Shown: one piece after another, positions 778 to 42,300 of the stretch
How positions within the stretch are numbered: the first letter of the stretch is position 1
Layout of the letters: the number at the start of each line of letters is the position of its first letter
Assembly: GCA_010093995.1 (NCBI GenBank)
Contig: ML992510.1
Span: 689,272-753,271, forward strand
Reading direction: 5' to 3'
Length of the DNA stretch: 64,000 nucleotides
From: Elsinoe ampelina
Taxonomy: Eukaryota
Notes under the pieces: generated by a model
What the model saw: the letters and a program-made list of their open reading frames with translations, nothing else
The model's database searches: none
Told to the model about the DNA's origin: nothing
Program-made: the position numbers and the translations under genes

Positions 778-3700
778 TCATGCCTGCATCACGCTCGACA
801 AAGCCATTTTGCCTTCTTCACTCAACCTTTCCTGCACAAACTTTCCAACTCTGCCACTGGTCTCGGAATCTTTGCCTCGAAGGTACTGGCCAACCCAGAC
901 CTTCACGTCTTGCACCTCTGGGAATGGATCCTTGGCGGTAGTCTTGCAAGTGTTGAGAGCAGTAAATCCAACACCAAATCCGACGTCCTCTACATCCTTG
1001 TCCTCAATGACATTCGCATCGTCCGCGGTAGGTGGCAGTGGAGGGTTGATCAAAAGCTTCAAAAGTGCCTCGCACGTCAACGCCCAACCTTTCTTGCCGT
1101 ACCGCTCCACGAAAGCTTCGCTCGTGGCCAGAGTATGGGTCAAGCTGACCACTGCCGTTTTTCGATCGTATGGCCTGGATAGCTTCTGAGTCTCTGGAAG
1201 AATGATGCCGGTATATATCGGAGTAAAGACGTTCTGCTGAATCTGATCCGTAATGCTGATGAACAAGTCCGCTCCGAGACCTTTGTCGTCTCTCGCAGAG
1301 AAGAAGTGGTAGAACCGGACAAATCGAATTGTGAAAGTCTCGGTCTTCGAATTCGACAACCGGGTGAGCATGATCTCCAGCATCGGTTTGAAATATTGTT
1401 GTAGCGCTGAGACGGGAAGGCTGCCGACCACGGTTTCGAGCAGATCGAAACCCAGTGACTCATTCGCTTTTGACGACACCAGCTTCTGGAAGATGATGAG
1501 AATTTGTTCGAGCTGATTGTTGGCAACAATTTGTTGAGCACCGCGAGGTATGATGGCAGTCAGTAGGCGTACAAGTGCTGGTATATTACCTCGCGAGTTG
1601 TAGAGATCAAGTGTGAGGACGGGCGGGAGTAGGGACAGATAGTATTCGGATAGCTCGCCAGATGGGTTGGCCTCCAGCAGAGCGGCGAAAAGTTGAAAGA
1701 CGTAGGGTTGAAATTCTTGCACATCCGTCTGCAGAATCTCGGCGAAGGGGTCGTAAAGAGCTTGCTCGAGGTGTGAAGATTGGGTAGGTGCGGCGAATCG
1801 TACCAAAGCACCTAAACTTTCAAAGTGGAAGTAGTAGAAGCGAGGATTGCTGGGATTGTGACGAATGACTTTTGTGATGTTGACCAGATTCTTCAAGACC
1901 ATGTCGAGATTCTGCACGACACCATCGCGAATGACGATCAAGACCCTCATCACTGCTTTCATGAGGAATTCATTTTCTTGAATCTTCTCTGGCTTGACAT
2001 CTTTCGTGATAAGAAGGAAAAGATGCTGGAGGAGCTCACGAGACAAAGGTGTGACGGTCTCGCGGCTGATGTATGGTTGGCGGTTGTCGTCAGTCATATA
2101 CAGGACGCGCTCAACAGCGATGGCAGCGTAGGTGTAGACCACGTAGTTTGATGAGCTCAAGTGATTAACGAGGAGTGGGAAGGCAGCTTGCCATTGCTCC
2201 TTGGTCAATTGGCTTCGGAAAATGTAAAGGTATTTGATGGCGTCGACTTTGAGCAGAGGGTGAGCGGACTCGGTGGTGAGATCAGTCGCAATGTTGTTCT
2301 GGAAAAAGTCCAAGATGTTGACTTGAGGGTTGGTTGCGGTGACACCTCTTACGCTAGTGACAGTGCCTTTAGCAGCTATCGAGGAGAAGAGATAGACCGC
2401 TGTATCCTTGGCTTTCCAGTTATTAGCAGGATCCTTTGCGCCTTCTGCAACGTAATGATTGATGTATTGTGTGACGACTTCTGTCGTCAAGTTTTCGAAT
2501 TGCTCCATCAATGCTCGCAGGAAGTCTGTGGCTGCTCGCCGTCTCGTGTCGCTGTCGGAACCTTCGAGATCTCTCCGGATGTATTCGATCGGCTCGTCCT
2601 CGAAAAGCTCGACGTCCGATTCTCTCAAAGACAGATTCGGCAGAACCACGTTTTCTACCACTTGCCCGAGGACTTCCTTATTGTTGAAGACCTCCGCATG
2701 CTGCTTGATCTTCGCCACAGATGTCAAGAATTGTAGCGCCTTGCTGACCAAGATGTCGTATTTTGTCTCTGAACCAATGGTGGTCAAAAGCTGCCACGAA
2801 CTCTGGATGAACTGGCTCAAATGCGGCCCGAAGACATCCTCGTACTTTTGTGTGTACAACTGGAGTGCTTCGAATATGCCCGCTTTCACAAATTCCAGGG
2901 AGCCAGATTCCGAGTCGTCGTCCGTTTGTAAGAAGGCATTGCTGTAGTTCAAATACTTGAGAAAGAGGCCGCTTATGGCTCCGAGGTTCTCCTCGAACAC
3001 CGGTGGTAGATCTTGACATGAGAGATCATAGAACAGTTTCATCATCAGGCTGAGTGTGGTAAAGTTTGCTTGTAACGCCTCTTTCTGTCCTTCCGACTGT
3101 GTGATAGCTTGATCTACATTTTGTAGCAGGGTGAGAAACGGCGTGCTGAACTTGCTGAGTACATGATTGATCTCCGTGAAGAGTGCGTCGGATCGGAAAA
3201 GAGGTCGCCATCGCCGGAAGATGGAATGCGCAACCTGTAGGACTCCATTGTTCACGGTCGGGTTGTCGGCGGTGAGTCGCGAGACAAGATCCTGCCTTTG
3301 TCAGTGTTTCCAATGCTAGCCAGCCCATGATGTTGCCATGCTCACGTCAACAAGCGTATCCCATCTCTCCCAGAAGTCGCTGTCCGCAATGACACTGATA
3401 GCCTCTCCAAGTTGTGTCTGAAGCGAAGGTGGCACAGCGATCATCAGCCCTATCAGCTCTTTCTTGATCGAATCGACCTCGTTTGCCGGAAGTTTGTAGT
3501 TGCCATCTTCATCCTATCATTGATCAGGCAACTTTTCTTCGTGGTATTTGCTCTAATACTCACTGTCCAATTCCGCCGAATGAAGTTCTTGAAGAAAAGC
3601 GCGCTCGCAAGTCTGGTCGTTTGAGGGTATGTGTTTGAGGCGACAATCTGAAGGAGGACAAGTGAGAAACCTTGTGCACTCTCTTCTTGCTTAATTGCTT

Positions 3701-7109: not shown

Positions 7110-7430
7110 GTAAGTGAATTGAGACTCCAGGTGCCGTGTCTTGTTCTTCACAGCTTGTGAGAGCAAACCTCTGCCCTACAAAACCGTTACGGCTTCGAAT
7201 CGTTGGAGAATCGATAAAGACCCGCCTGTCCCGACTCGTCCTCGTCACGATAGAGGCAACGGCTTCCAGCTCTGTCAGTCTGTCTCGATAAGCCAAAACG
7301 GTTCTAGGACGACGACTCTCTTTTCGACTGAGACCAGACCGGTCAACCTTGTTCTTTCAGATATAACTCTTACAGCGCCTCCCGGTTGAGGCTCTCTTTC
7401 CAGCGACCGCTCACTGACACTCTCTGTCAG
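7110..7430 (+). other. Probable 5'-UTR intron of the CAP gene
   Basis: GTAAGT donor at 7110; CTGAC branch, pyrimidine tract and CAG ending at 7430, 81 nt before the ATG; CT-rich leader upstream. Confidence 0.55.
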
Positions 7431-7511
7431 GCACATTCTTTGACAGGATCTGGTATCCCCGACAGTCCTTCTGAACCGGTATCAGACACTCGAAAAGAAC
7501 AACTGATCAAC

Positions 7512-9182
7512 ATGCGTTCCTCGGTCCTCTTCACCGCGGCCTTTGCTGCTGTCGCCCTTGCTTCCCCTGCCTTCGACAAGCGTGGTGAGGTCGTCGTGAC
7601 CGATGCCGAAGTCGTCTATGTCACAGAGGTCGTGACCGTCACCGAAGGTCAGCCCGCACCCACTGCCGAGCCGACCTACACCAAGACGGCCTACGGTGGA
7701 TGGCGCAAGAAGGGTCGCAAGGGCCGCAAGACTGGTGGCTACGGCAGCGCTCCTGCGCCTGTCCCCACCGAGCCTGCACCAGTGCCGTCCTCCGCTGAGG
7801 TTCCCGCCCCGGCTCCCTCCACCTACGAGCCCGCTCCTCAGCCAGAGCCAACCACCGAGGCTCCTGCCCTAGCTCCCACCTCGTACGAGCAGCCTGCCCC
7901 TGCACCAACCTCATACGAACAGCCGGCACCCGCTCCTTCCACCACCGAGGCCGCGCCACCACCAGCCTACACTCCGGTAAGCAGCGATCAACAGGCACCA
8001 CTGCACATCCAAACCGAAATGATCCTCTCCGATGCACCAGCACAAGCACTCTCCGTCCCAGCACCTGCACCTGCACCTCAATCATCCATCCTGCACCGTC
8101 TCCTCCCCTTCCCCCTCTCCGTCTTCGGCTTCTCTGCACCCGACTGCCACAGCTCTGAGGAAGAGGTCCATCTCCACAAGCGTGGCACAAAGGTGCAGAC
8201 GAAGAAGAAGGTCGCGAAGACCAACAAGAAGCAGAAGAAGAAGAAGGCCTCCACCACCAAGAAGGCAAATGCCAAAGCCACAAAAGCCCCCTCCACCCCT
8301 GCCACCTCCAAAGACACATCCAAAGACACCACCTCTCAGAGCACCGCATCCTCTACCACTGCCACTGCATCCAAAGACACAGCTACTAAAACTTCCTCCA
8401 AGCCAGCTTCGGGTAAGGCCACCACATATCAACAGGCCGTCCTCAACCACCACAACTACCACCGCGCCAACCACTCTGCACCTGACATTGCGTGGTCTCA
8501 GTCTCTCGCCGATACAGCATTGAAGATCGCCAAGACATGCGTGTATGAGCACAACACTGAGATGGATGGTGGCGGTTATGGGTATGTCTCGTCCTTCCCC
8601 CCTTTTCCCCCACACTTTCTCCCCAACTCCACCACCTCCCCTCGCTTTCCCAATCATTCATATGTGCTCAAACTGACGACTTGTATCCAAAATATCGCAG
8701 CTGGCATTGTTGCCGGAAAGATATCTACAATTTTAAGCGACATGTTCTATAATGGTGAGGTCGAAGCATATGGTGGTGTGTATGGCCAGAACCCTTCCAT
8801 GACCAACTTTGGAACTTGGGGGTAAGTTTCGATATTCATCCGAGATGCTCCGAGACAGCGCTGACGACCCCTCTGCCACTTCTCGCAGATGGTTTGGAAG
8901 AGCACCACCGAAGTAGGCTGCGCGACATACGACTGTGGCTCTTCGGCGACTGGCGTCCTCAAGAACTACGGCGGAATCTTCACTGTTTGCAATTACAACC
9001 CTGCAGGTCAGCCGATCCTCCAGCTCTAATCCCGCAGAAAATGCTGACGATGAAATGCAGGCAATTACCAGGGTCAGTACGACACACAAGTCGGACAGTG
9101 CCTCAACCAGCCAACCATTGACGGTACCTATAACGTGGACGTTGCAGCCATCCAGGCGGACGCCGAGGCTCGATTCCAGTAA
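7512..9182 (+). CDS. Secreted CAP/SCP (PR-1/Pry-like) protein with Pro/Thr-rich linker
   Basis: Signal peptide MRSSVLFTAAFAAVALA and FDKR Kex2-like site; PAPAPTSYEQ repeats; CAP motifs HHNYHRANH, GQNIA, GHFSQMVWKSTTEVGCA, FTVCNYNPAGN. Proposed introns 7977-8402 (optional), 8582-8686 (ends AT), 8822-8875 (ends TG), 9007-9060; stop TAA 9180-9182. Confidence 0.88.
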
Positions 9183-10922
9183 ACGGGTCCCCTCACGCCA
9201 GGGCTCCACCAGGTCGACTTGAGGCTTCAGTACTTATGGTCGACTTTTTCCTTTCGTTCCGGTAGGGAGGTCGTGGGACTTGCTCGATGCGTTCCAAGTA
9301 GCCGAGTCCAGTAATGGGCCGAGGTCTGCAGGATGAGGCATCCGTTCTTCGATCATCCTCCGGTCTTTTTCTTTCTCTCTGTGGATACTTGCATGACTTG
9401 ACGTCAATGCGGAAGCGAAGCAATGTGGGACTGAAATGCTTCGCAGGTCATGCGATATAGGGAAATGGAAATAACTTCTCAGAATGCTCTAGTGCCAGTG
9501 CAATCGATGTCGATGATGAGGCCGTTTTATAAATGCGATTGAATGCGCCGACATAGCCACCGGGCATTGCTTGTGTAGCTGTTTCGAGATGTGTTTGGGT
9601 GGAAGGGTCGTGTAGCAAGTCGACGGGTAAGAGGTGGGGAAGGGCAGCCACCATACAGGCTGCATGTGGCAAAGACGAGCTGAGAAGATGACAAACACGC
9701 AGGCAGGACAGACTATAGTTTTGTACATTCAACGAGGACTCAGCTCTACTGATTAGTCCAACAATGAATCTGCAGGTGGCACAAAATTGCAGTTCAGCTG
9801 AGCCGCAATGAATCCACTTCAGATCCCTGCTCGACCAGTCGTGTTGCTCACTCAAGCGCCCGGCCCAATCAACTACGCCGCTGTGCTCAATGGTATTTAT
9901 CCTGGACGTATGAATAGTCGCGGGACCGGTGACGGACTGGTCGTCGTTCCGGTCATTGTTGGTCATCGTAAGAGGCTACCACATTCGGTGATTTAGCTGC
10001 GCAAGCGGACTGCGACGTTGGAAGGCTGCTGGTAGGATTGGCACATATATTTTCTGATATTGCCTGACATGAGGCCTGACATGAGGATTGCACGGTAGCA
10101 GACTGCCCAGTCAAAGAAATGCCAAATCTGCGGATTTTTCACGACAAAAGGATCTCTACAAACGTAGTGTTGATTTCGCAGGAGTATCGTTGACGCCCTG
10201 ATCATGCCTGACTTGAAAGCCTTTCCCGAGAAGCCCCAAGGCCAGCGATTGGACTTGGCAAGTTACACAGAAGTCCACGGATTTCAACGACATGTTCCAC
10301 AGAGCTATATTCCTGGCACGGGACACATCTATCAAATACATTGTAGCGACACTCCGATACATTGTCGGCAGAATCTATTACTACCAGGCACGGCAACGTT
10401 CTTTCAATAATTGCTTTTGCCCTGTTTGCCAAGATGGACGGCGCCCATTTGTATCATGTTGAGCCTAGGGACGCTGCCAATCTACAAGTTCATGCGGCGC
10501 GGTTCGTCGCTTTATGGGCATATTCTCCACCTGCTGCAACCATAGGATCTCCGGGCTGTGAGTAGTAGACAGGTTAACAACAAGTAATCTGACCATGAAG
10601 AATGATACACAGTCTTCATTATCCACTTCGCACCTCAGTCACGATGGCAGACATCTCATCAGGGCCCAAACAATGGTTCCGCTTAGCGCTGCATCTTCGG
10701 GTCGACCAATCACGTCTGATCTGCGGCCCTAGACCAGGGTATTGCAGATGAAGACCCAAGACGATGGTTTCAACCAGACCTGCAGCCATGCGGCGCAGTT
10801 TGGCGCAGAAAACTGCGCGCTGCGTTTTGTTGAAGAGCTGCAGCCCGCCCTGCGCCATGTGATGGCTTTTGCATAGCAGACTCGACGACGTGCAGACCCT
10901 CAGGTCGAGGTATACGGGAGGC

Positions 10923-13900
10923 ATGTCCCGACATCATGGGCTGTCATCCGACAAAGAGGTCGTGGAAGCCCGTGTACACCTAATCGCACAACCCTCGGAC
11001 GAAAAGGAACTTTTCGATCCTTCAGTGCACATCACCAGCATTGCTCCTTCACTGGATGACCGATCAGGACGACCGCCTTCAGCAGACGACAAGCAAGTTC
11101 TTGACACTTCGAAACAGCTTCGGGAGACGCTCTGGACACCTCTGTTCTTACGACGTCCAACAACATTTGCATTCGTCGCCTGCGCGTTGATCATTTTGGC
11201 CGTCGCGGAGGTGCTGAATGCGCGATCGAACAAGGACAATGGGCTAGTCTGGGCAAAACCGAATTTGCACTACCTATGGACCTTTGGTCCCACCGCAGTG
11301 CTTACTATCCTGGCCGCACTATGGAACCAGGTCGATTATCAGGTCCGGAGGAATGCGCCGTTCGTGAAGATGTCCCAGGCCAAGCTCCTGGCTCATGAAT
11401 CTGTGCTTCTGGACTATCTCTCACCATGGGACCCCCAAGCTTTGGTGACAGGGATTAACAGGAAGGACTGGCAAGTCTCTCTCAGCGTGCTGGCATCGCT
11501 CTCCCTTCGCCTGCTGATTGTCCTGTCAACTGGACTATTCGCACTTCGCTATCCCTCCGTTCGTGGATCGACAGCACTCCTTCAAGCAGACCGCTTCGAC
11601 TTTGCAAGGACGGCTCGGAACCCCAGCGACCCGGGAAAGCTAACTTCGGACGGGTTGAGCCCTGCGATCTTCAACGTTACCTACAATGATGGAACGGACA
11701 GTCATTATGCTGCACAAAGCTTTAGGTTGGCAGCAGGGACTATCGGGACGAATGCAACATTGACGGCTAACGTTGATGTTGTGTCCGCGGATTTGATATG
11801 CGAGCAAGCTGATTGGACATATACGAATCGCTCGTTTCAATACGTCGGTACGCTTAACGATGCGCCTGTTGATGTGGACATCTGGACGGATACGTATGCG
11901 CTGTCCGAGTATAGGATGAAGCTCACCACACCGGCATCGATCCCTTTCGATGACTGGGACATGTCCAAAGTTCCAATTGTCAGCAGCAACGCCGGCCCTG
12001 GTTGGCTGACGGACCATGCATTTGTAAACGCCACTTGCGAGAACAAAAAGTCGAACTCGAATCAGCCCTGCTATCTCATCGCGCTTGTACTTTCCGATTT
12101 CTACAATGAAACAGTCCCGAGTAACCTCGGTGGAGGACAGGGCTTCAAGCAAACTTCGACTGTCACCGAGCAATTGACCCGAGACCCAAACTTGCCTCAA
12201 GCGACAAACTCTGTGCTCATCGGACGGCAAGTCTTTCAGACTCCGGACAGTGGTGGTCAGTGGTTCACTGGGGATAATGTCTACATCCGACAAATGACTG
12301 CTTTCTTGTGCCAACCCAAAGTCACATATGCTCGGGCCGAAGTCAGCACTGCTGCTGGACAATCCTCCACCACTGGGGGCATCAATATCACTCGGATTTT
12401 GGAAGAGATTCCGACCACTTCTGTGGGCCTGTCCGCTTGGGAATATGCTGAGAAGGTCCGGACCGCCGCTCTTTCGGATGGCTTACTCACGACGTCGTTT
12501 CGTCTCACCAACTTCTTCGCTCTGATGGACCTCGTCGCCCGGAGGGGTTCATACCAGGACTACATGGATCCTGCGATCTTATCAAATACAGCTCGAGATG
12601 TATTCCGTAGAATATCCGCGCAGTATGCCAAGCAGGAGCTCACCGAGCCCGCAGAGACCACAATCGAAGGTCAGATGATCGACGTGGGGCCACGACTCAC
12701 CGTTGAGGCCTTGACTCTACGGCTCATGGATGGCTTCTTGATAGTGTTCGCGTTATGCGCGCTGGGTATCTGCTTATTCTTCGTCTTTCCCGGCCTGCCC
12801 CGCGACTTCAGCTCGATAGGATCACTGGCATTACTGCTCAGTCGCAGTCCAGATCTTGCACGTATCTGCTCTGGATTAGGCTCTGTCCGACTGAAGCACC
12901 TTGGTACTTGGATGCATGGTTACCGATTCTCCACCAGCTTTACGCGCGATACCACTTCTCGTATATATCAGATCAAGGCTGAGCTGGATCCGTCGGTCCC
13001 GGAACAAGACTCGCCGCCCCTTGCACAACAGGAACTGAAATGGTGGCGACCTGCAATGTTCGGACGGCCGCTACGAGTACTCACCGTTCTTGTGCCGTTA
13101 ATCTTAGTAGCATGCCTCGAATATGGACATCGCTACTCGGATCGACACACAGGCTATGGCATCGTTCCCCAAGGAGGATACCTTAAGTATGCTTGGACGT
13201 TCGCCCCAGCCATTGTCATGGTAGCCACTGCATCCACCTTCTCTGTACTCGACTTCAGCACACGTACGTTCCAGCCGTATCATGCACTTTCTGGAGCCCG
13301 GAAGGCATCTGCCAAGGATCTGGTGGAGACGCCATTTGGATACTTCGCGGCGTTCTCTCTTGGACGGTCTCTACTGCGTCGTCAATGGGCTCTGAGTGCT
13401 ACTTCGTTGGCGATCTGTATCGCACCCTTCTTGACCATCGTTGTCAGTGGTCTCTTACAAGCAGAGAACATCGGCATTGGTCAAGGAAGAGCTGCCACCA
13501 TACATCAAACTTTCCTTCCGGACAACATCAATAACTATGATAACAACGTGGATTCTAGCCAGGGTATAGTGCCTATGATAGTGTATGAGAATGTCTCTTA
13601 TCCGGCTCTGACGTTTAACAACCTGGTCTTTCCCAACTTCACTCTCGAGACCAACGCTTCAACCCCACAGACATCCCGCTTTGAGGTCAACATCCCTGCA
13701 GCAGCGATGGAGTCTGAGTGCAAAGTCATCGAACCGAAGATTCTTTCATGGACTACCAGACCGCCAACACAGGGACTCAACAGTACTGAATGGACAGTTG
13801 ACGGGCGAATTGACCTCTCGTCGTATGGAAGCTGCAGTCAAGTCAACAGAACCTCGGGACAGAACACCACTACAACCACCTTACCATTCAATGTGCAAGA

Positions 13901-14798
13901 GAGTCTCTCCAGCTACGTTTCAAAGCCGGCCGCAGAATCTACCTTCGGCAGCAGAGTGACTGCTAACTTTGCCAACACCACCTGCAATGGCCAACGAGTC
14001 GGCTATCTGTACGCTTTAATGCGCCTCAAAGCCAGCACAATTCAAGATGTGGTTATCATCAACTGCAAGCCAAGAATCGACATCGTCAGCGCAAATGCAA
14101 CAGGCAGGTCATCCGATTACCAGATCAGTGACGCAACCATCCTGGACGACCCGTCTTCTCCGAGACGCACATTCACCACTCATTACTCACAATTCAACTC
14201 TGCAAAGCTGCCATGCCCCGGCAACCCTCCCTTCCAGACCTCGCTCGGCTGTGCAACTCAAGCCCTGTTAGCCTACGCCGGGCTGAACGAAGCAGCTTTA
14301 TTCCAACCCACCAACGCCACAGCACTCGCCACCGCCTTCACCAATCTCCTGAACATCATTTACGCAATGCGCTTCACTTACTGGCAACGCGCCTCCACGG
14401 AACAGCCACCATCAAGAGGCGTCTTCTTCCCCGCAACCACAAGGCTACAAGCCTCCATCCTCGACCAGACTGAATACAGGGTAGTGCAAAGCCTGATCTC
14501 GACTCGCATCCTCCAAGCGCTGCTAGGGACCATGTCGCTGTGCGCACTCATCGCCTGGGCCGGTACACGCTCGAAGAAGGTCCTGACGAAGAACCCGCAG
14601 AGTATCGCGGCTGTGGCGTCGTTGCTGGTGGACGCGGATATGTTGAGGGATATACCGCCTGGCGCGGAGTTTATGGATGATAAAGAGTTGAAGAGGAACG
14701 GTGTCTTTGAGGGTGGGTTTTATAGTATCGGGTGGTGGGGAGATGACAGGGGGAGGAGGTTTGGCATTGATGTCGGGCAGGCGGAGAAGCCGACGTAA
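10923..14798 (+). CDS. DUF3433-family large multi-pass membrane protein (intronless, ~1290 aa)
   Basis: Long ORF with two DUF3433-like units (LWTFGPTAVLTILAALWNQVDYQVRRNAPF..LLDY; YAWTFAPAIV..LDFSTRTFQPYHAL), N-glycosylation-rich loops, and C-terminal NPQSIAAVASLL..GWW..RFGIDV. Confidence 0.85.
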   Translation: MSRHHGLSSDKEVVEARVHLIAQPSDEKELFDPSVHITSIAPSLDDRSGRPPSADDKQVLDTSKQLRETLWTPLFLRRPTTFAFVACALIILAVAEVLNARSNKDNGLVWAKPNLHYLWTFGPTAVLTILAALWNQVDYQVRRNAPFVKMSQAKLLAHESVLLDYLSPWDPQALVTGINRKDWQVSLSVLASLSLRLLIVLSTGLFALRYPSVRGSTALLQADRFDFARTARNPSDPGKLTSDGLSPAIFNVTYNDGTDSHYAAQSFRLAAGTIGTNATLTANVDVVSADLICEQADWTYTNRSFQYVGTLNDAPVDVDIWTDTYALSEYRMKLTTPASIPFDDWDMSKVPIVSSNAGPGWLTDHAFVNATCENKKSNSNQPCYLIALVLSDFYNETVPSNLGGGQGFKQTSTVTEQLTRDPNLPQATNSVLIGRQVFQTPDSGGQWFTGDNVYIRQMTAFLCQPKVTYARAEVSTAAGQSSTTGGINITRILEEIPTTSVGLSAWEYAEKVRTAALSDGLLTTSFRLTNFFALMDLVARRGSYQDYMDPAILSNTARDVFRRISAQYAKQELTEPAETTIEGQMIDVGPRLTVEALTLRLMDGFLIVFALCALGICLFFVFPGLPRDFSSIGSLALLLSRSPDLARICSGLGSVRLKHLGTWMHGYRFSTSFTRDTTSRIYQIKAELDPSVPEQDSPPLAQQELKWWRPAMFGRPLRVLTVLVPLILVACLEYGHRYSDRHTGYGIVPQGGYLKYAWTFAPAIVMVATASTFSVLDFSTRTFQPYHALSGARKASAKDLVETPFGYFAAFSLGRSLLRRQWALSATSLAICIAPFLTIVVSGLLQAENIGIGQGRAATIHQTFLPDNINNYDNNVDSSQGIVPMIVYENVSYPALTFNNLVFPNFTLETNASTPQTSRFEVNIPAAAMESECKVIEPKILSWTTRPPTQGLNSTEWTVDGRIDLSSYGSCSQVNRTSGQNTTTTTLPFNVQESLSSYVSKPAAESTFGSRVTANFANTTCNGQRVGYLYALMRLKASTIQDVVIINCKPRIDIVSANATGRSSDYQISDATILDDPSSPRRTFTTHYSQFNSAKLPCPGNPPFQTSLGCATQALLAYAGLNEAALFQPTNATALATAFTNLLNIIYAMRFTYWQRASTEQPPSRGVFFPATTRLQASILDQTEYRVVQSLISTRILQALLGTMSLCALIAWAGTRSKKVLTKNPQSIAAVASLLVDADMLRDIPPGAEFMDDKELKRNGVFEGGFYSIGWWGDDRGRRFGIDVGQAEKPT

Positions 14799-39300: not shown

Positions 39301-42300
39301 AGAGTAGGAGTATTTCTTAGCTATATAGATAGAACTAACAGGATATATAAGATATAGGTACCTAATAGGAAGGCAGTAATTATATCACTAAATATTAAGT
39401 TCTCTAAATTTAAGAAAGGTAGGAATATTAATCTTAGTATTAAGATTAGCACTACGAGCAATTAAGCACTAGTTAGGAGACTAATTAGTAGACTAACCTA
39501 GATCCGAGCCCGGCTTAATCCTAAGGTAGACTAATTAGATTAGCCTATTTAGTAAGAAGCGCCTATAGGGAGAATCTTCTTACATATCGAGATCCTAAGG
39601 GTTAACCCTATTAACCTTACAGAATTCTAACGTAGAGAAGAGCTAATAGTTTAATCTATATTACCTAATTATGCAGGTTAATCACTTAAGAGATTAAGAG
39701 ATAAAGAGTCTAATAATAAAGAGCCTAAGGTAAAGCATTATAGAGCATTTATTGCTAAGTGTATTAATTAGCAAGATAAGGTTAATAAGATTACTATAAC
39801 AGCCTCTATTAAGTAATATGTCCTAATTCTAAGAGACTACTATAAGGCTGTTACTAATCTAGTTTAGGGAGGTAAGTAGCAGGAAGTAATTAATATAGAG
39901 CTTAATACTCTAGGATTAAATAACACATAGGAAGAGGTTGTCCCTCTAAAAGAATTAAACTTAGTAACATCTAAGTAGGTCTTTAATGTTAAGTACAACA
40001 CGGATAGCTCTATTAAGAAGTTTAAGGCTAGACTTATTACTAGAGGCTTCTTATAGAAGTATAGCATTAACTATAAAGACATATTTATACTAATAGTTAG
40101 AGTAGATACACTAAGACTATTCTTTACTATTGTATATATACTTAACCTTAAATGTCATTAGGTGGATGTTAATAATACCTTTACAGAATTATTCCTTAGG
40201 GAAGTAATTTATATAAGGCTACTACCTAGACTTAAGGTCTAACCTAGCATTGCCTTCCGCATTCTTAGGAGCTTGTATAGACTTAAGCAAGCTGCTAGAG
40301 ATTAGAATTAGCACTACATCTCTAAGCTTTTAAAGCTAGGCTTTACTTAGAGCGAAGTAGACCTCTATCTTCTTATATACTATAATAAGAAGATTATTCT
40401 CTTAGTTTATGTTAATAACATACCATTTACAGCATAAAGCAAAGAGAACATCTAGTAGTTTAAGCAAGAGCTTAGTAGAATCTTCAAGATTAAGAATCTT
40501 AGTAAGGTTAGCAAAGTTCTTAGGGTTAAGGTTATAAGAGACAGATAATAAGGAACCTTAAGGCTTAACTAGACCTACTATGTAGATAATGTGCTATAGA
40601 GGCTTAATATAACCTCTAATAAGGCTACTCTAACAAAGTAGCTAATAGACAATAAGCTTCCTTAGAGAGCTTAGACTAAAGATATAAGGTTTAGTAGAAC
40701 TAAGTACTTATATGCTATTAGAAGCTAGATATACCTTAGTACCCTAATAAGACTAGACACTACCTTTGCCTTAGGAAGGCTTAGTTAGTTCATAGCAGAT
40801 CTAATAGACAGCTATACTATTAAGATAAAGAAGATGTTAAGATATATTAGATTAACTAAAGATCTTAGTATAGTGTTTAGGAGGAATAGTAACAAGACTC
40901 TTAAGGGATATTCTAATTCAGACTATGCCTTAGATAAGACAGACAGAGTCTCNNNNNNNNNNAATTAGATTAGCCTATTTAGTAAGAAGCGCCTATAGGG
41001 AGAATCTTCTTACATATCGAGATCCTAAGGGTTAACCCTGTTAACCTTATAGAATTCTAACGTAGAGAAGAGCTAATAGTTTAATCTATATTACCTAATT
41101 ATGTAGGTTAATCACTTAAGAGATTAAGAGATAAAGAGTCTAATAATAAAGAGCCTAAGGTAAAGCATTATAGAGCATTTATTGCTAAGTGTATTAATTA
41201 GCAAGATAAGGTTAATAAGATTACTATAACAGCCTCTATTAAGTAATATGTCCTAATTCTAAGAGACTACTATAAGGCTATTACTAATCTAGTTTAGGGA
41301 GGTAAGTAGCAGGAAGTAATTAATATAGAGCTTAATACTCTAGGATTAAATAACACATAGGAAGAGGTTGTCCCTCTAAAAGAATTAAACTTAGTAACAT
41401 CTAAGTAGGTCTTTAATGTTAAGTACAACACGGATAGCTCTATTAAGAAGTTTAAGGCTAGACTTATTACTAGAGGCTTCTTATAGAAGTATAGCATTAA
41501 CTATAAAGACATATTTATACTAATAGTTAGAGTAGATACACTAAGACTATTCTTTACTATTGTATATATACTTAACCTTAAATGTCATTAGGTGGATGTT
41601 AATAATACCTTTACAGAATTATTCCTTAGGGAAGTAATTTATATAAGGCTACTACCTAGACTTAAGGTCTAACCTAGCATTGCCTTCCGCATTCTTAGGA
41701 GCTTGTATAGACTTAAGCAAGCTGCTAGAGATTAGAATTAGCACTACATCTCTAAGCTTTTAAAGCTAGGCTTTACTTAGAGCGAAGTAGACCCCTATCT
41801 TCTTATACACTATAACAAGAAGATTATTCTCTTAGTTTATGTTAATAACATACCATTTACAGCATAAAGCAAAGAGAACATCTAGTAGTTTAAGCAAGAG
41901 CTTAGTAGAATCTTCAAGATTAAGAATCTTAGTAAGGTTAGCAAAGTTCTTAGGGTTAAGGTTATAAGAGACAGATAATAAGGAACCTTAAGGCTTAACT
42001 AGACCTACTATGTAGATAATGTGCTATAGAGGCTTAATATAACCTCTAATAAGGCTACTCTAACAAAGTAGCTAATAGACAATAAGCTTCCTTAGAGAGC
42101 TTAGACTAAAGATATAAGGTTTAGTAGAACTAAGTACTTATATGCTATTAGAAGCTAGATATACCTTAGTACCCTAATAAGACTAGACACTACCTTTGCC
42201 TTAGGAAGGCTTAGTTAGTTCATAGCAGATCTAATAGACAGCTATACTATTAAGATAAAGAAGATGTTAAGATATATTAGATTAACTAAAGATCTTAGTA

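What the first reader, a model, noticed from the sequence alone, without database searches (positions are those of the whole stretch)
8582..8875. Two consecutive introns in the CAP domain need non-AG acceptors (GT-AT and GT-TG)
Seen: intron 8582-8686 has GTATGT and a CTGAC branch but ends TTGTAT, exactly where splicing gives GGYG|QNIAAG. Intron 8822-8875 has GTAAGT and GCTGAC but ends CTCTG, exactly where splicing gives WG|HFSQMVW with the conserved CAP1 His. The next AGs (8700, 8888) frameshift into stops. Retaining the first intron adds 35 aa in frame; retaining the second terminates at TAA. The rest of the gene looks intact and intron 9007-9060 is canonical. Inference: two hits confined to acceptor dinucleotides are unlikely as random decay, suggesting branch-point-distance-driven non-canonical 3' splice-site use that could gate production of functional protein.
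Basis: partly seen in the sequence, partly recalled or inferred. Interest (0 to 1): 0.85.

Follow-up and report, generated by a model that had tools for sequence, protein, structure and literature searches.

The report
Two fungal introns spliced without AG
In a highly expressed secreted CAP (PR-1-like) gene of the grapevine fungus Elsinoe ampelina, two neighbouring introns are removed in real transcripts at ends reading AT and TG instead of the near-universal AG, a rare natural exception to the splicing rule.

Summary
The gene (CDS 7512-9182, + strand) is a secreted CAP/PR-1-like protein. It is 100% identical to an NCBI protein named Elsinoe ampelina.

cDNA-like contigs of three runs from three studies carry the joints 8581/8687 (GT..AT, unambiguous) and 8821/8876 (GT..TG). 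The same contigs carry the canonical joint 9006/9061. A 35-kb DNA contig matches the window with 0 differences, though it may come from the window's own source sample.

The observed mRNA encodes 343 aa that align without gaps to 18 homologues. It scores best against the family profile, at 391.6 bits. The AG acceptors give truncations of 231 and 268 aa.

Both non-AG sites lie 10-11 nt behind the CTGAC branch A and 13-14 nt before an AG. Their sequences, UAU and CUG, fall in the HAU and BG classes that yeast uses when Prp18 is missing (PMC10711555).

The branch-distance mechanism and the "gating" idea remain untested. GT-AT and GT-TG introns are known at about 0.02% each in a curated fungal annotation, so this is a new member of a known kind. 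The public gene model is wrong by 177 residues.

The parts
7512..9182 (+). Coding span of the CAP/PR-1-like gene (ATG 7512, TAA 9180-9182). It has 5 exons and the mature product is 343 aa.
   Evidence: Transcript contigs run from about 7431 to 9431-9484.
7512..7976 (+). Exon 1: N-terminal hydrophobic leader (signal-peptide-like by eye) followed by a Pro/Ala-rich region.
   Evidence: The N-terminus is conserved in the Elsinoe/Sphaceloma models P0020, P0021, P0002 and P0004.
7977..8402 (+). Intron 0: GT..AG, 426 nt, phase 0. Its length is divisible by 3 and it has no in-frame stop. Public models keep it as coding.
   Evidence: Joint 7975/8402 (cut +1) in X3 and X4, shorter side only 29 letters. 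Retention contigs have depth 18.2 against 5120.7 for the joint in X3.
8403..8581 (+). Exon 2: start of the CAP domain, ending ...DGGGYG.
8582..8686 (+). Intron 1: GT..AT, 105 nt, phase 2. Donor GTATGT 8582-8587; branch CTGAC 8673-8677 (A 8676); last bases AT 8685-8686, 10 nt behind the branch A.
   Evidence: Joint 8581/8687 with no positional ambiguity (both = 0) in X3, X4 and X5. Sequence.
8687..8821 (+). Exon 3 (QNIAAG...FGTWG). Its first 14 bases, 8687-8700, end in the unused CAG (AG 8699-8700).
8822..8875 (+). Intron 2: GT..TG, 54 nt, phase 2. Donor GTAAGT 8822-8827; branch CTGAC 8861-8865 (A 8864); last bases TG 8874-8875, 11 nt behind the branch A.
   Evidence: Joint reported as 8820/8875 with one shared letter. 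This reads as either 8821-8874 (GG..CT) or 8822-8875 (GT..TG), and neither ends in AG. Seen in X3, X4 and X5. The NCBI model P0001 also uses this joint.
8876..9006 (+). Exon 4 (HFSQMVWKSTTEVGC...CNYNPAG). Its first 13 bases, 8876-8888, end in the unused CAG (AG 8887-8888).
9007..9060 (+). Intron 3: canonical GT..AG, 54 nt, phase 1. Branch CTGAC has its A at 9047, 13 nt before the end.
   Evidence: Joint 9001/9056 (cut +5) in X3, X4 and X5.
9061..9182 (+). Exon 5 with the stop codon.

Best explanation
Introns 8582-8686 and 8822-8875 are ordinary U2-type spliceosomal introns in every respect except their last two bases. Exon ligation takes place at UAU| (GT..AT) and CUG| (GT..TG) rather than at YAG|. 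The resulting mRNA is the assembled, abundant form and encodes a complete secreted CAP/PR-1-like protein of 343 aa.

Shown: the joints, the intact reading frame, and the fit to the family.

Inferred mechanism: after the first catalytic step, the site docked for ligation is the one lying at the preferred short distance from the branch adenosine (10-11 nt). A terminal U or a terminal G preceded by a non-A base can still make the non-Watson-Crick contact with the intron's first G. These are the HAU and BG classes of tolerated non-consensus sites described in yeast. The CAG 13-14 nt further on may help early 3' end recognition, as proposed for human TG-AG tandems, but it is not the ligation site.
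For: (1): contigs of X3 (depth 13284.9), X4 (496.2) and X5 (124.2), from three studies, each carry 8581/8687, 8820-1/8875-6 and 9001/9056 in one record. A canonical + strand GT..AG joint therefore sits on the same molecule as the two non-AG joints. Microhomology at the joints is 0 and 1 letters.

(2): both introns have consensus donors (GTATGT, GTAAGT) and CTGAC branches.

(3): the spliced product aligns without a gap at either junction to 18 of 18 homologues (P0002-P0019). The 35-aa insertion is seen only in the public model P0001.

(4): against a profile of 17 homologues the observed isoform scores 391.6 bits in one stretch. Intron 1 retained scores 355.6 bits in two stretches. The AG acceptors score 196.1 and 280.1 bits and are truncated.

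(5): the X1 DNA contig has 0 differences. X3 has 0 differences over all its laid pieces, including 485 nt across intron 0, so a strain with AG at just these two places is unlikely.

(6) Passages read in PMC10711555: BG and HAU are the most frequent non-canonical 3' sites used by yeast lacking Prp18. They lie mostly within 20 nt upstream of the annotated AG and close to the branch point. CUG is among the sites validated there.

(7) Abstract and section 12 of PMC2374985: human TG 3' sites function only with an AG within 28 nt.

(8) Table 1 of PMC11590231: 22 GT-TG and 18 GT-AT beside 89,855 GT-AG introns in a curated fungal annotation.
Against: No raw reads were seen, only contigs. Contigs cannot give isoform ratios and they drop rare variants.

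The intron sequences of the strains behind X3-X5 were not seen, because no contig covers introns 1 or 2 in those runs. AG in those strains is therefore not formally excluded.

X1 may be the window's own source, so the DNA check is not independent.

The branch points are inferred from motif only.

RNA folding gave no significant structure hiding the downstream AGs (z -1.89 and -1.15).

The upstream pyrimidine tract that the yeast study links to non-AG use is weak for intron 1 (CUUGU between branch and 3' end).

Why two such introns sit side by side is unexplained. At roughly 0.02% each this is not expected by independent chance.
Confidence: 0.85

Rival explanations
1. Strain difference or consensus error. 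The strains that gave the RNA have AG at both acceptors, and the window's strain (or its assembly) carries AT and TG, making its copy a young pseudogene.
For: The introns were not seen in X3-X5. X4 and X5 do differ from the window at a few places: T>C at 7504 and 7870 in X4, and an extra C behind 9188 in X4 and X5. X1 may be the same data as the assembly.
Against: X3 shows 0 differences in all 9 laid pieces, including intron 0. This rival therefore needs two differences that both fall exactly on acceptor dinucleotides. An independently assembled contig of X1 at depth 172 is identical to the window. The NCBI model of E. fawcettii lacks exactly 8 residues right behind junction 1, as expected if that species also has an acceptor there that a gene finder cannot use.
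Confidence: 0.05
2. Artefact of reverse transcription (template switching) or of contig assembly, not splicing.
For: Non-canonical joints in RNA-seq are often such artefacts. PMC7072748 mentions reverse-transcription artefacts (passage).
Against: There is no repeat at the borders (0 and 1 shared letters). The same joints appear in three studies and carry the full depth of the gene. The removed pieces start with consensus donors and hold CTGAC branches. The product restores two family signature motifs exactly.
Confidence: 0.02
3. Regulated gate. Splicing toggles between the productive non-AG sites and the frameshifting AGs 13-14 nt downstream, and the latter products are degraded, so the ratio sets protein output.
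For: The AGs are in normal range of the branch (24 nt). In humans, TG sites occur only as alternatives to a nearby AG, with tissue-specific ratios (PMC2374985 abstract). Frameshifted products would carry early stops and could escape assembly.
Against: No AG joint appears in any of the 3 RNA-like runs (table 5 lists 4 joints only). The productive form is very abundant.
Confidence: 0.12
4. Non-spliceosomal removal, of the IRE1/HAC1 type or the tRNA-endonuclease type.
For: The termini are non-AG.
Against: Both pieces have spliceosomal donors and branch motifs at the usual spacing, and sit among canonical introns of like size. No significant local structure was found. I did not search for IRE1 loop motifs.
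Confidence: 0.01

Closest known systems
BG and HAU non-consensus 3' splice sites used by S. cerevisiae spliceosomes lacking Prp18 (Roy et al. 2023, PMC10711555; abstract and passages read)
   Same: The sequence classes match: CUG is BG and UAU is HAU. The sites lie close to the branch point and within 20 nt upstream of a YAG. The yeast study proposes that the contact of the last base with the intron's first G is retained.
   Different: Here the sites are the main, productive sites of a natural gene in a presumably wild-type fungus. In yeast they are low-level errors unmasked by a mutation. Any dependence on Prp18 in this fungus is unknown.
TG-AG 3' splice site tandems in human genes (Szafranski et al. 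2007, PMC2374985; abstract and section 12 read)
   Same: Intron 2 ends in TG, has an AG 13 nt downstream (within their 28-nt limit), and has a pyrimidine at -3.
   Different: In humans TG is never the sole site and AG>TG mutants switch to a neighbouring AG.
GT-TG and GT-AT introns counted in the curated annotation of Ganoderma lingzhi (PMC11590231, Table 1 passage read)
   Same: The terminal dinucleotide pairs are the same, in a fungus, in curated gene models.
   Different: That paper gives census counts only (22 and 18 beside 89,855 GT-AG), in a basidiomycete. In the passages I read, nothing is said on branch distance, on nearby AGs, or on two such introns in one gene.
CAP / PR-1-like secreted proteins of fungi (Pfam PF00188)
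   Same: Pfam matches on both sides of the introns. 38 invariant family columns are listed in the alignment of 17 homologues, and the spliced product aligns to the family without gaps at either junction.
   Different: There is a long Pro-rich N-terminal extension. The gene structure has introns directly in front of two signature motifs, and these introns are absent in 80 of 80 more distant relatives.

Membership tests
U2-type spliceosomal intron | 5' end GT with extended consensus (GTRNGT in fungi; recalled) | tested here: met
   GTATGT at 8582 and GTAAGT at 8822.
U2-type spliceosomal intron | Branch motif CTRAY a short distance before the 3' end | tested here: met
   CTGAC with its A at 8676 and 8864, 10 and 11 nt before the intron ends. 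This rests on the motif only; no lariat data.
U2-type spliceosomal intron | 3' terminal AG | tested here: not met
   Intron 1 ends AT. Intron 2 ends TG (or CT in the other reading of the joint).
U2-type spliceosomal intron | Precise removal from mature RNA | tested here: met
   Joints found in contigs of 3 of 3 RNA-like runs.
U12-type AT-AC intron | 5' ATATCC and 3' AC with a TCCTTAAC-like branch (recalled) | tested here: not met
   The 5' ends are GT. The reverse complement of GT..AT would read AT..AC, but the same contigs carry + strand GT..AG joints and the minus-strand ends do not fit.
TG-AG tandem 3' splice sites (PMC2374985) | TG used as the acceptor with an AG within 28 nt | tested here: met
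   TG at 8874-8875 and AG at 8887-8888.
TG-AG tandem 3' splice sites (PMC2374985) | TG is only an alternative; the AG form co-exists | tested here: inconclusive
   No AG joint was found in 3 runs, but contigs drop rare forms.
BG/HAU non-consensus 3' sites (PMC10711555) | Last three bases BG or HAU, upstream of and within 20 nt of a YAG, near the branch | tested here: met
   CUG and UAU lie 13 and 14 nt before a CAG and 11 and 10 nt from the branch A.
BG/HAU non-consensus 3' sites (PMC10711555) | Use rises when Prp18 is absent; strong upstream poly(U) | not testable with these tools
   No genome or mutant data were available. The tract is CCCCUCU for intron 2 and only CUUGU for intron 1.
CAP / PR-1 superfamily (PF00188) | Match to the Pfam model above its cut-off | tested here: met
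   28.3 and 30.1 bits against a cut-off of 21.1, for the pieces before and after the introns.
CAP / PR-1 superfamily (PF00188) | Signature motifs intact in the product (HNxxR, GQNI, GHFSQxVW, CNY; motif names recalled) | tested here: met
   All are present and aligned in the spliced product. They are lost or shifted with the AG acceptors.

The most novel reading that the evidence does not exclude
In Elsinoe (Myriangiales) the second-step spliceosome may place the 3' splice site mainly by its distance from the branch adenosine and accept HAU or BG there even when a YAG lies a dozen bases further on. Non-AG acceptors would then be a conserved, lineage-wide feature. Two hints point this way: the 8-residue gap right behind junction 1 in the E. 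fawcettii model, and an ORF of another fungus that breaks off at the same place. Many gene models of these fungi would be wrong in the same way as this one. The nearby AG would serve early recognition only and could provide a regulated, decay-coupled switch.
Probability: 0.2. Interest if true: 0.85.

Novelty: new member of a known kind. Interest (0 to 1): 0.62.

Why it matters
Natural introns whose main ligation site is not AG are very rare. In humans, TG sites occur only beside a used AG. In yeast, non-AG sites surface mainly when a fidelity factor is removed.

A highly expressed gene with two such introns side by side, each with an unused in-range CAG, is a ready-made natural substrate. It can be used to ask how the spliceosome chooses the 3' splice site: by distance from the branch, by tolerated base contacts, or by the role of a nearby AG.

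Practically, gene finders that insist on AG mis-model such genes. The public protein for this locus carries 177 residues that the transcripts do not encode. The E. fawcettii orthologue model lacks part of a signature motif.

The protein is an abundant secreted CAP-family member of a grapevine pathogen, so a correct sequence matters for any functional work on it.

Tried and rejected
- Whole genome: none is held for this window. No genome-wide census of junctions was possible, and no check of splicing-factor genes.
- Run search: no RNA holder is listed on record. The RNA nature of X3-X5 follows only from their spliced contigs.
- Earlier findings of this scan: nothing on this genome, these words or this sequence.
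- Regex census of donor + branch + first AG in the window: 38 candidates against 41.6 in shuffles. It is uninformative for the species' usual branch-to-AG distance, so I dropped it.
- RNA folding of the branch-to-AG stretches and of whole introns: z-scores from -0.30 to -1.89. In intron 2 the CUG and the downstream CAG pair with each other in the best fold, but 25 of 200 shuffles fold as well. I do not use this as evidence.
- Similarity between the four introns, testing the duplicated or 'introner' idea: none. The best pair was reached by 21 of 300 shuffles.
- Metagenome scan for relatives' DNA: 205 confirmed loci, of which 80 were kept. All are 37-64% identical to the query P0004, and none is an Elsinoe orthologue. 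None of the 80 has an intron at either junction. One of the two search patterns spans junction 1 and so favours intron-less copies. Many short contigs may be transcripts.
- Third protein search for short E. ampelina products from alternative isoforms: none near 100% identity among 82 hits.
- Antisense AT-AC reading, IRE1-type removal, RNA editing of the acceptor (no known editing type turns AT or TG into AG) and template switching were considered and rejected on the grounds given under the rivals.
- Print: I found no description of this gene's splicing or of non-AG introns in Elsinoe, or in the passages of PMC8295512. Subscription papers on the E. ampelina genome and transcriptome cited there were not seen. 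Supplements were not opened.

Full report
**What is there.** The finding lies in a five-exon gene on the + strand. The ATG is at 7512 and the TAA at 9180-9182. Pfam places the CAP family (PF00188) on the translated stretches on either side of the two introns, at 28.3 and 30.1 bits against a cut-off of 21.1. A protein search returns a 520-aa NCBI entry, P0001, named 'CAP domain-containing protein [Elsinoe ampelina]'. It is 100% identical to the query, so the window is from that grapevine pathogen or a near-identical strain. Relatives carry names such as 'PR-1-like protein' and 'Repressed by EFG1 protein 1'.

**The observation.**
- Intron 1 runs 8582-8686. It starts GTATGT, has CTGAC with the branch A at 8676, and ends ...TTGTAT.
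- Intron 2 runs 8822-8875. It starts GTAAGT, has GCTGAC with the branch A at 8864, and ends ...CTCTG.
- The next AGs end at 8700 and 8888.

A script that builds each isoform from the window gave these products:

| Isoform | Product |
|---|---|
| Proposed joints (8581/8687, 8821/8876) | 343 aa |
| AG acceptor at 8700 | 231 aa |
| AG acceptor at 8888 | 268 aa |
| Intron 1 retained | 378 aa (35 added in frame) |
| Intron 2 retained | 260 aa (stops at TAA 8823-8825) |

**The decisive test.** The run search listed 24 runs, and none is on record as RNA. I laid four of them on 7300-9500.

X1 is DNA and may be the window's own source. It gives one 35-kb contig with 0 differences. An independent assembly of reads at depth 172 therefore reads AT and TG at these places. 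That argues against an assembler slip, but it is not independent of the sample.

X3, X4 and X5 come from three studies. Each holds one contig (840, 804 and 871 letters) that runs from 8402 to beyond 9400 and skips three pieces:
- 8582-8686. The ends are GT..AT and no letter is shared at the joint, so the position is unambiguous.
- 54 bases, reported as 8821-8874 with one shared letter. This is equally 8822-8875, which reads GT..TG. Neither reading ends in AG.
- 9007-9060, GT..AG.

A canonical + strand intron is removed from the same molecules, so these are spliced + strand transcripts. They are not antisense RNAs or genomic DNA. Their depths are 13284.9, 496.2 and 124.2, and the intron bins hold no extra depth. 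Table 5 of that call lists four joints in all, and none uses 8700 or 8888. Contigs cannot show rare forms, so 'sole site' is not proven.

**Fit of the product.** The spliced product aligns to 18 of 18 homologues without a gap at either junction. It reconstitutes ...GGGYG-QNIAAG... and ...WG-HFSQ(I/M)VW.... Against a profile built from 17 homologues (alignment A1), the isoforms score as follows:
- Observed isoform: 391.6 bits in a single stretch.
- Intron 1 retained: 355.6 bits, split in two stretches.
- Public model: 335.7 bits, split in three stretches.
- AG acceptor at 8700: 196.1 bits.
- AG acceptor at 8888: 280.1 bits.

**The public model.** An isoform built by removing only introns 2 and 3 is letter for letter P0001. 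The deposited annotation therefore already contains the GT..TG intron. It keeps intron 1 (35 aa) and a further 426-nt intron (142 aa) as coding. That makes 177 residues that the transcripts do not encode.

**Is it a strain effect or an artefact?** X3 has 0 differences in all nine laid pieces, including 485 bases across intron 0. X4 differs at 7504 and 7870, and X4 and X5 carry an extra C behind 9188, so at least two genotypes give the same joints. For the strain rival, the only differences between X3 and the window would have to be the two acceptor dinucleotides. I rate this at about 5%. Template switching is unlikely for four reasons:
- There is no repeat at the borders.
- The same joints appear in three studies.
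- They carry the full depth of the gene.
- The removed pieces bear consensus donor and branch motifs.

**Relatives.** No close relative's DNA could be reached. A metagenome scan gave 205 confirmed loci, of which 80 were kept. They are 37-64% identical to the query P0004. In 80 of 80, one tblastn stretch in one frame crosses both junction residues. The regex check found the junction-2 motif uninterrupted in every locus where it was found at all. Introns 1 and 2 are therefore absent from all the more distant relatives seen. Two caveats apply: one search pattern spans junction 1, and short contigs may be transcripts. About ten loci break at or near residue 304, so intron 3 seems older.

Among annotated Elsinoe-group proteins, E. 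australis (P0021), Sphaceloma murrayae (P0002) and Myriangium duriaei (P0005) are continuous at both junctions. The E. fawcettii model (P0020) lacks exactly the 8 residues that follow junction 1. A transcript-derived relative (P0004) has them. This is what a gene finder would produce if an intron there ended in something other than AG and the next in-frame AG lay 24 nt downstream. It is a hint, not a test. A further hint comes from P0049, an ORF called on a 124.5-kb genomic contig of another fungus. It runs through ...DGGGYG and stops 11 codons later, as if an intron started at the same place.

**How it most likely works.** The two non-AG ends lie 10 and 11 nt behind the presumed branch A. The two canonical introns of this gene end 13 and 13 nt behind theirs, and the unused AGs lie 24 and 24 nt away (the intron 0 branch was read by eye as TACTAAA).

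The last three bases are UAU and CUG. In yeast lacking Prp18, the non-consensus sites most often activated are HAU and BG. They lie mostly within 20 nt upstream of the normal AG and close to the branch. A terminal U or G is proposed to keep a contact with the intron's first G (PMC10711555, abstract and passages).

In human genes, TG works as a 3' site only when an AG lies within 28 nt. This was read as AG-dependent early recognition followed by a later choice of TG (PMC2374985, abstract and section 12).

The anatomy here fits both pictures. I therefore propose early definition of the 3' region, possibly helped by the nearby CAG, followed by ligation at the branch-proximal tolerated site. None of this was tested. 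Folding gave no significant structure that would hide the AGs.

**What is known, and novelty.** A curated annotation of Ganoderma lingzhi counts 22 GT-TG and 18 GT-AT introns beside 89,855 GT-AG (PMC11590231, Table 1 passage). A survey across kingdoms concludes that the 3' site is more flexible than the 5' site (PMC7072748, conclusion passage). The kind is therefore known, and this is a new, well-supported member.

What stands out is two such introns side by side in one abundant transcript, each with an unused CAG 13-14 nt downstream. At roughly 0.02% per intron, two neighbours are not expected by independent chance, and I have no explanation for the pairing. The introns are not similar to each other. 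I found nothing in print on this gene or on non-AG introns in Elsinoe. The subscription genome and transcriptome papers, and all supplements, were not seen.

**Surroundings.** The gene sits in a gene-rich stretch of 1-36 kb at 44-61% GC (2-kb windows). Neighbours include a Cse1/CAS exportin on the minus strand (778-3300) and a DUF3433 protein (10863-14798). Further on are glyoxalase, WLM, fungal rhodopsin-domain, CLPTM1, choline-transporter-like, NIF phosphatase and FDF-domain genes. From 36 kb to the end the window is AT-rich, at 26-35% GC.

**Verdict.** Interest is 0.62.

Noticed in passing
window 7977-8402 (+): Intron 0 is 426 nt (divisible by 3), phase 0 and free of in-frame stops. Transcripts remove it: joint depth is 5120.7 against 18.2 for the retention contig in X3. 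The NCBI models of E. ampelina, E. fawcettii, E. australis and S. murrayae keep the homologous stretch as coding. So does Dothideomycetidae sp. 11243 (P0016, 407 aa), whereas the transcript-derived P0015 (314 aa) lacks it. The translated stretch shares motifs across species (…QAPL…, …PDCH…, a dibasic KR, …TKTSSKP). It may be an exitron-like alternative region, or only a conserved intron that gene finders read through. The other two frames are also fairly open here.
   Followed up: partly
window 7512-9182 (+); protein P0001: The public 520-aa protein equals the window's gene with introns 0 and 1 retained. The transcripts support 343 aa.
   Followed up: yes
protein P0020 (E. fawcettii model), aligned to window junction 8581/8687: The model lacks exactly 8 residues (the QNIAAG.. 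motif) right behind junction 1, while a transcript-derived relative (P0004) has them. This suggests an intron there with an acceptor the gene finder could not use.
   Followed up: partly
protein P0049 (ORF on a 124.5-kb genomic contig of an unnamed fungus): The ORF runs through ...DGGGYG and stops 11 codons later, as if an intron began at the same place as intron 1. Its DNA could not be read.
   Followed up: no
window 7977-8402, 8582-8686, 8822-8875, 9007-9060: All four introns have lengths divisible by 3 (426, 105, 54, 54). Three of the four are followed by CCA, and both non-AG introns are phase 2 inside a Gly codon (GG|..|C).
   Followed up: no
window 7504, 7870, 9188: Strain differences appear in the transcript contigs: T>C at 7504 and 7870 in X4, and an extra C behind 9188 in X4 and X5. 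X3 has none.
   Followed up: no
window 8215-8246: Short contigs of X4 and X5 (depth 385.9 and 167.5) match only this AAG-rich stretch inside intron 0 and run on into unlike sequence. This is probably a low-complexity match to another transcript.
   Followed up: no
window 36001-64000: A sharp switch to AT-rich DNA (26-35% GC against 44-61% before it), with a run of 10 N at 40953-40962. It looks like a repeat-derived, gene-poor compartment next to the gene-rich part. Not analysed.
   Followed up: no
loci L010, L012, L033, L048, L049, L054, L055, L060, L073, L074: In these related genomic contigs the protein match breaks at or near residue 304 (the place of intron 3). In L048, L049, L054 and L055 it resumes in another frame. 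Intron 3 therefore seems shared with more distant relatives, while introns 1 and 2 are not.
   Followed up: partly
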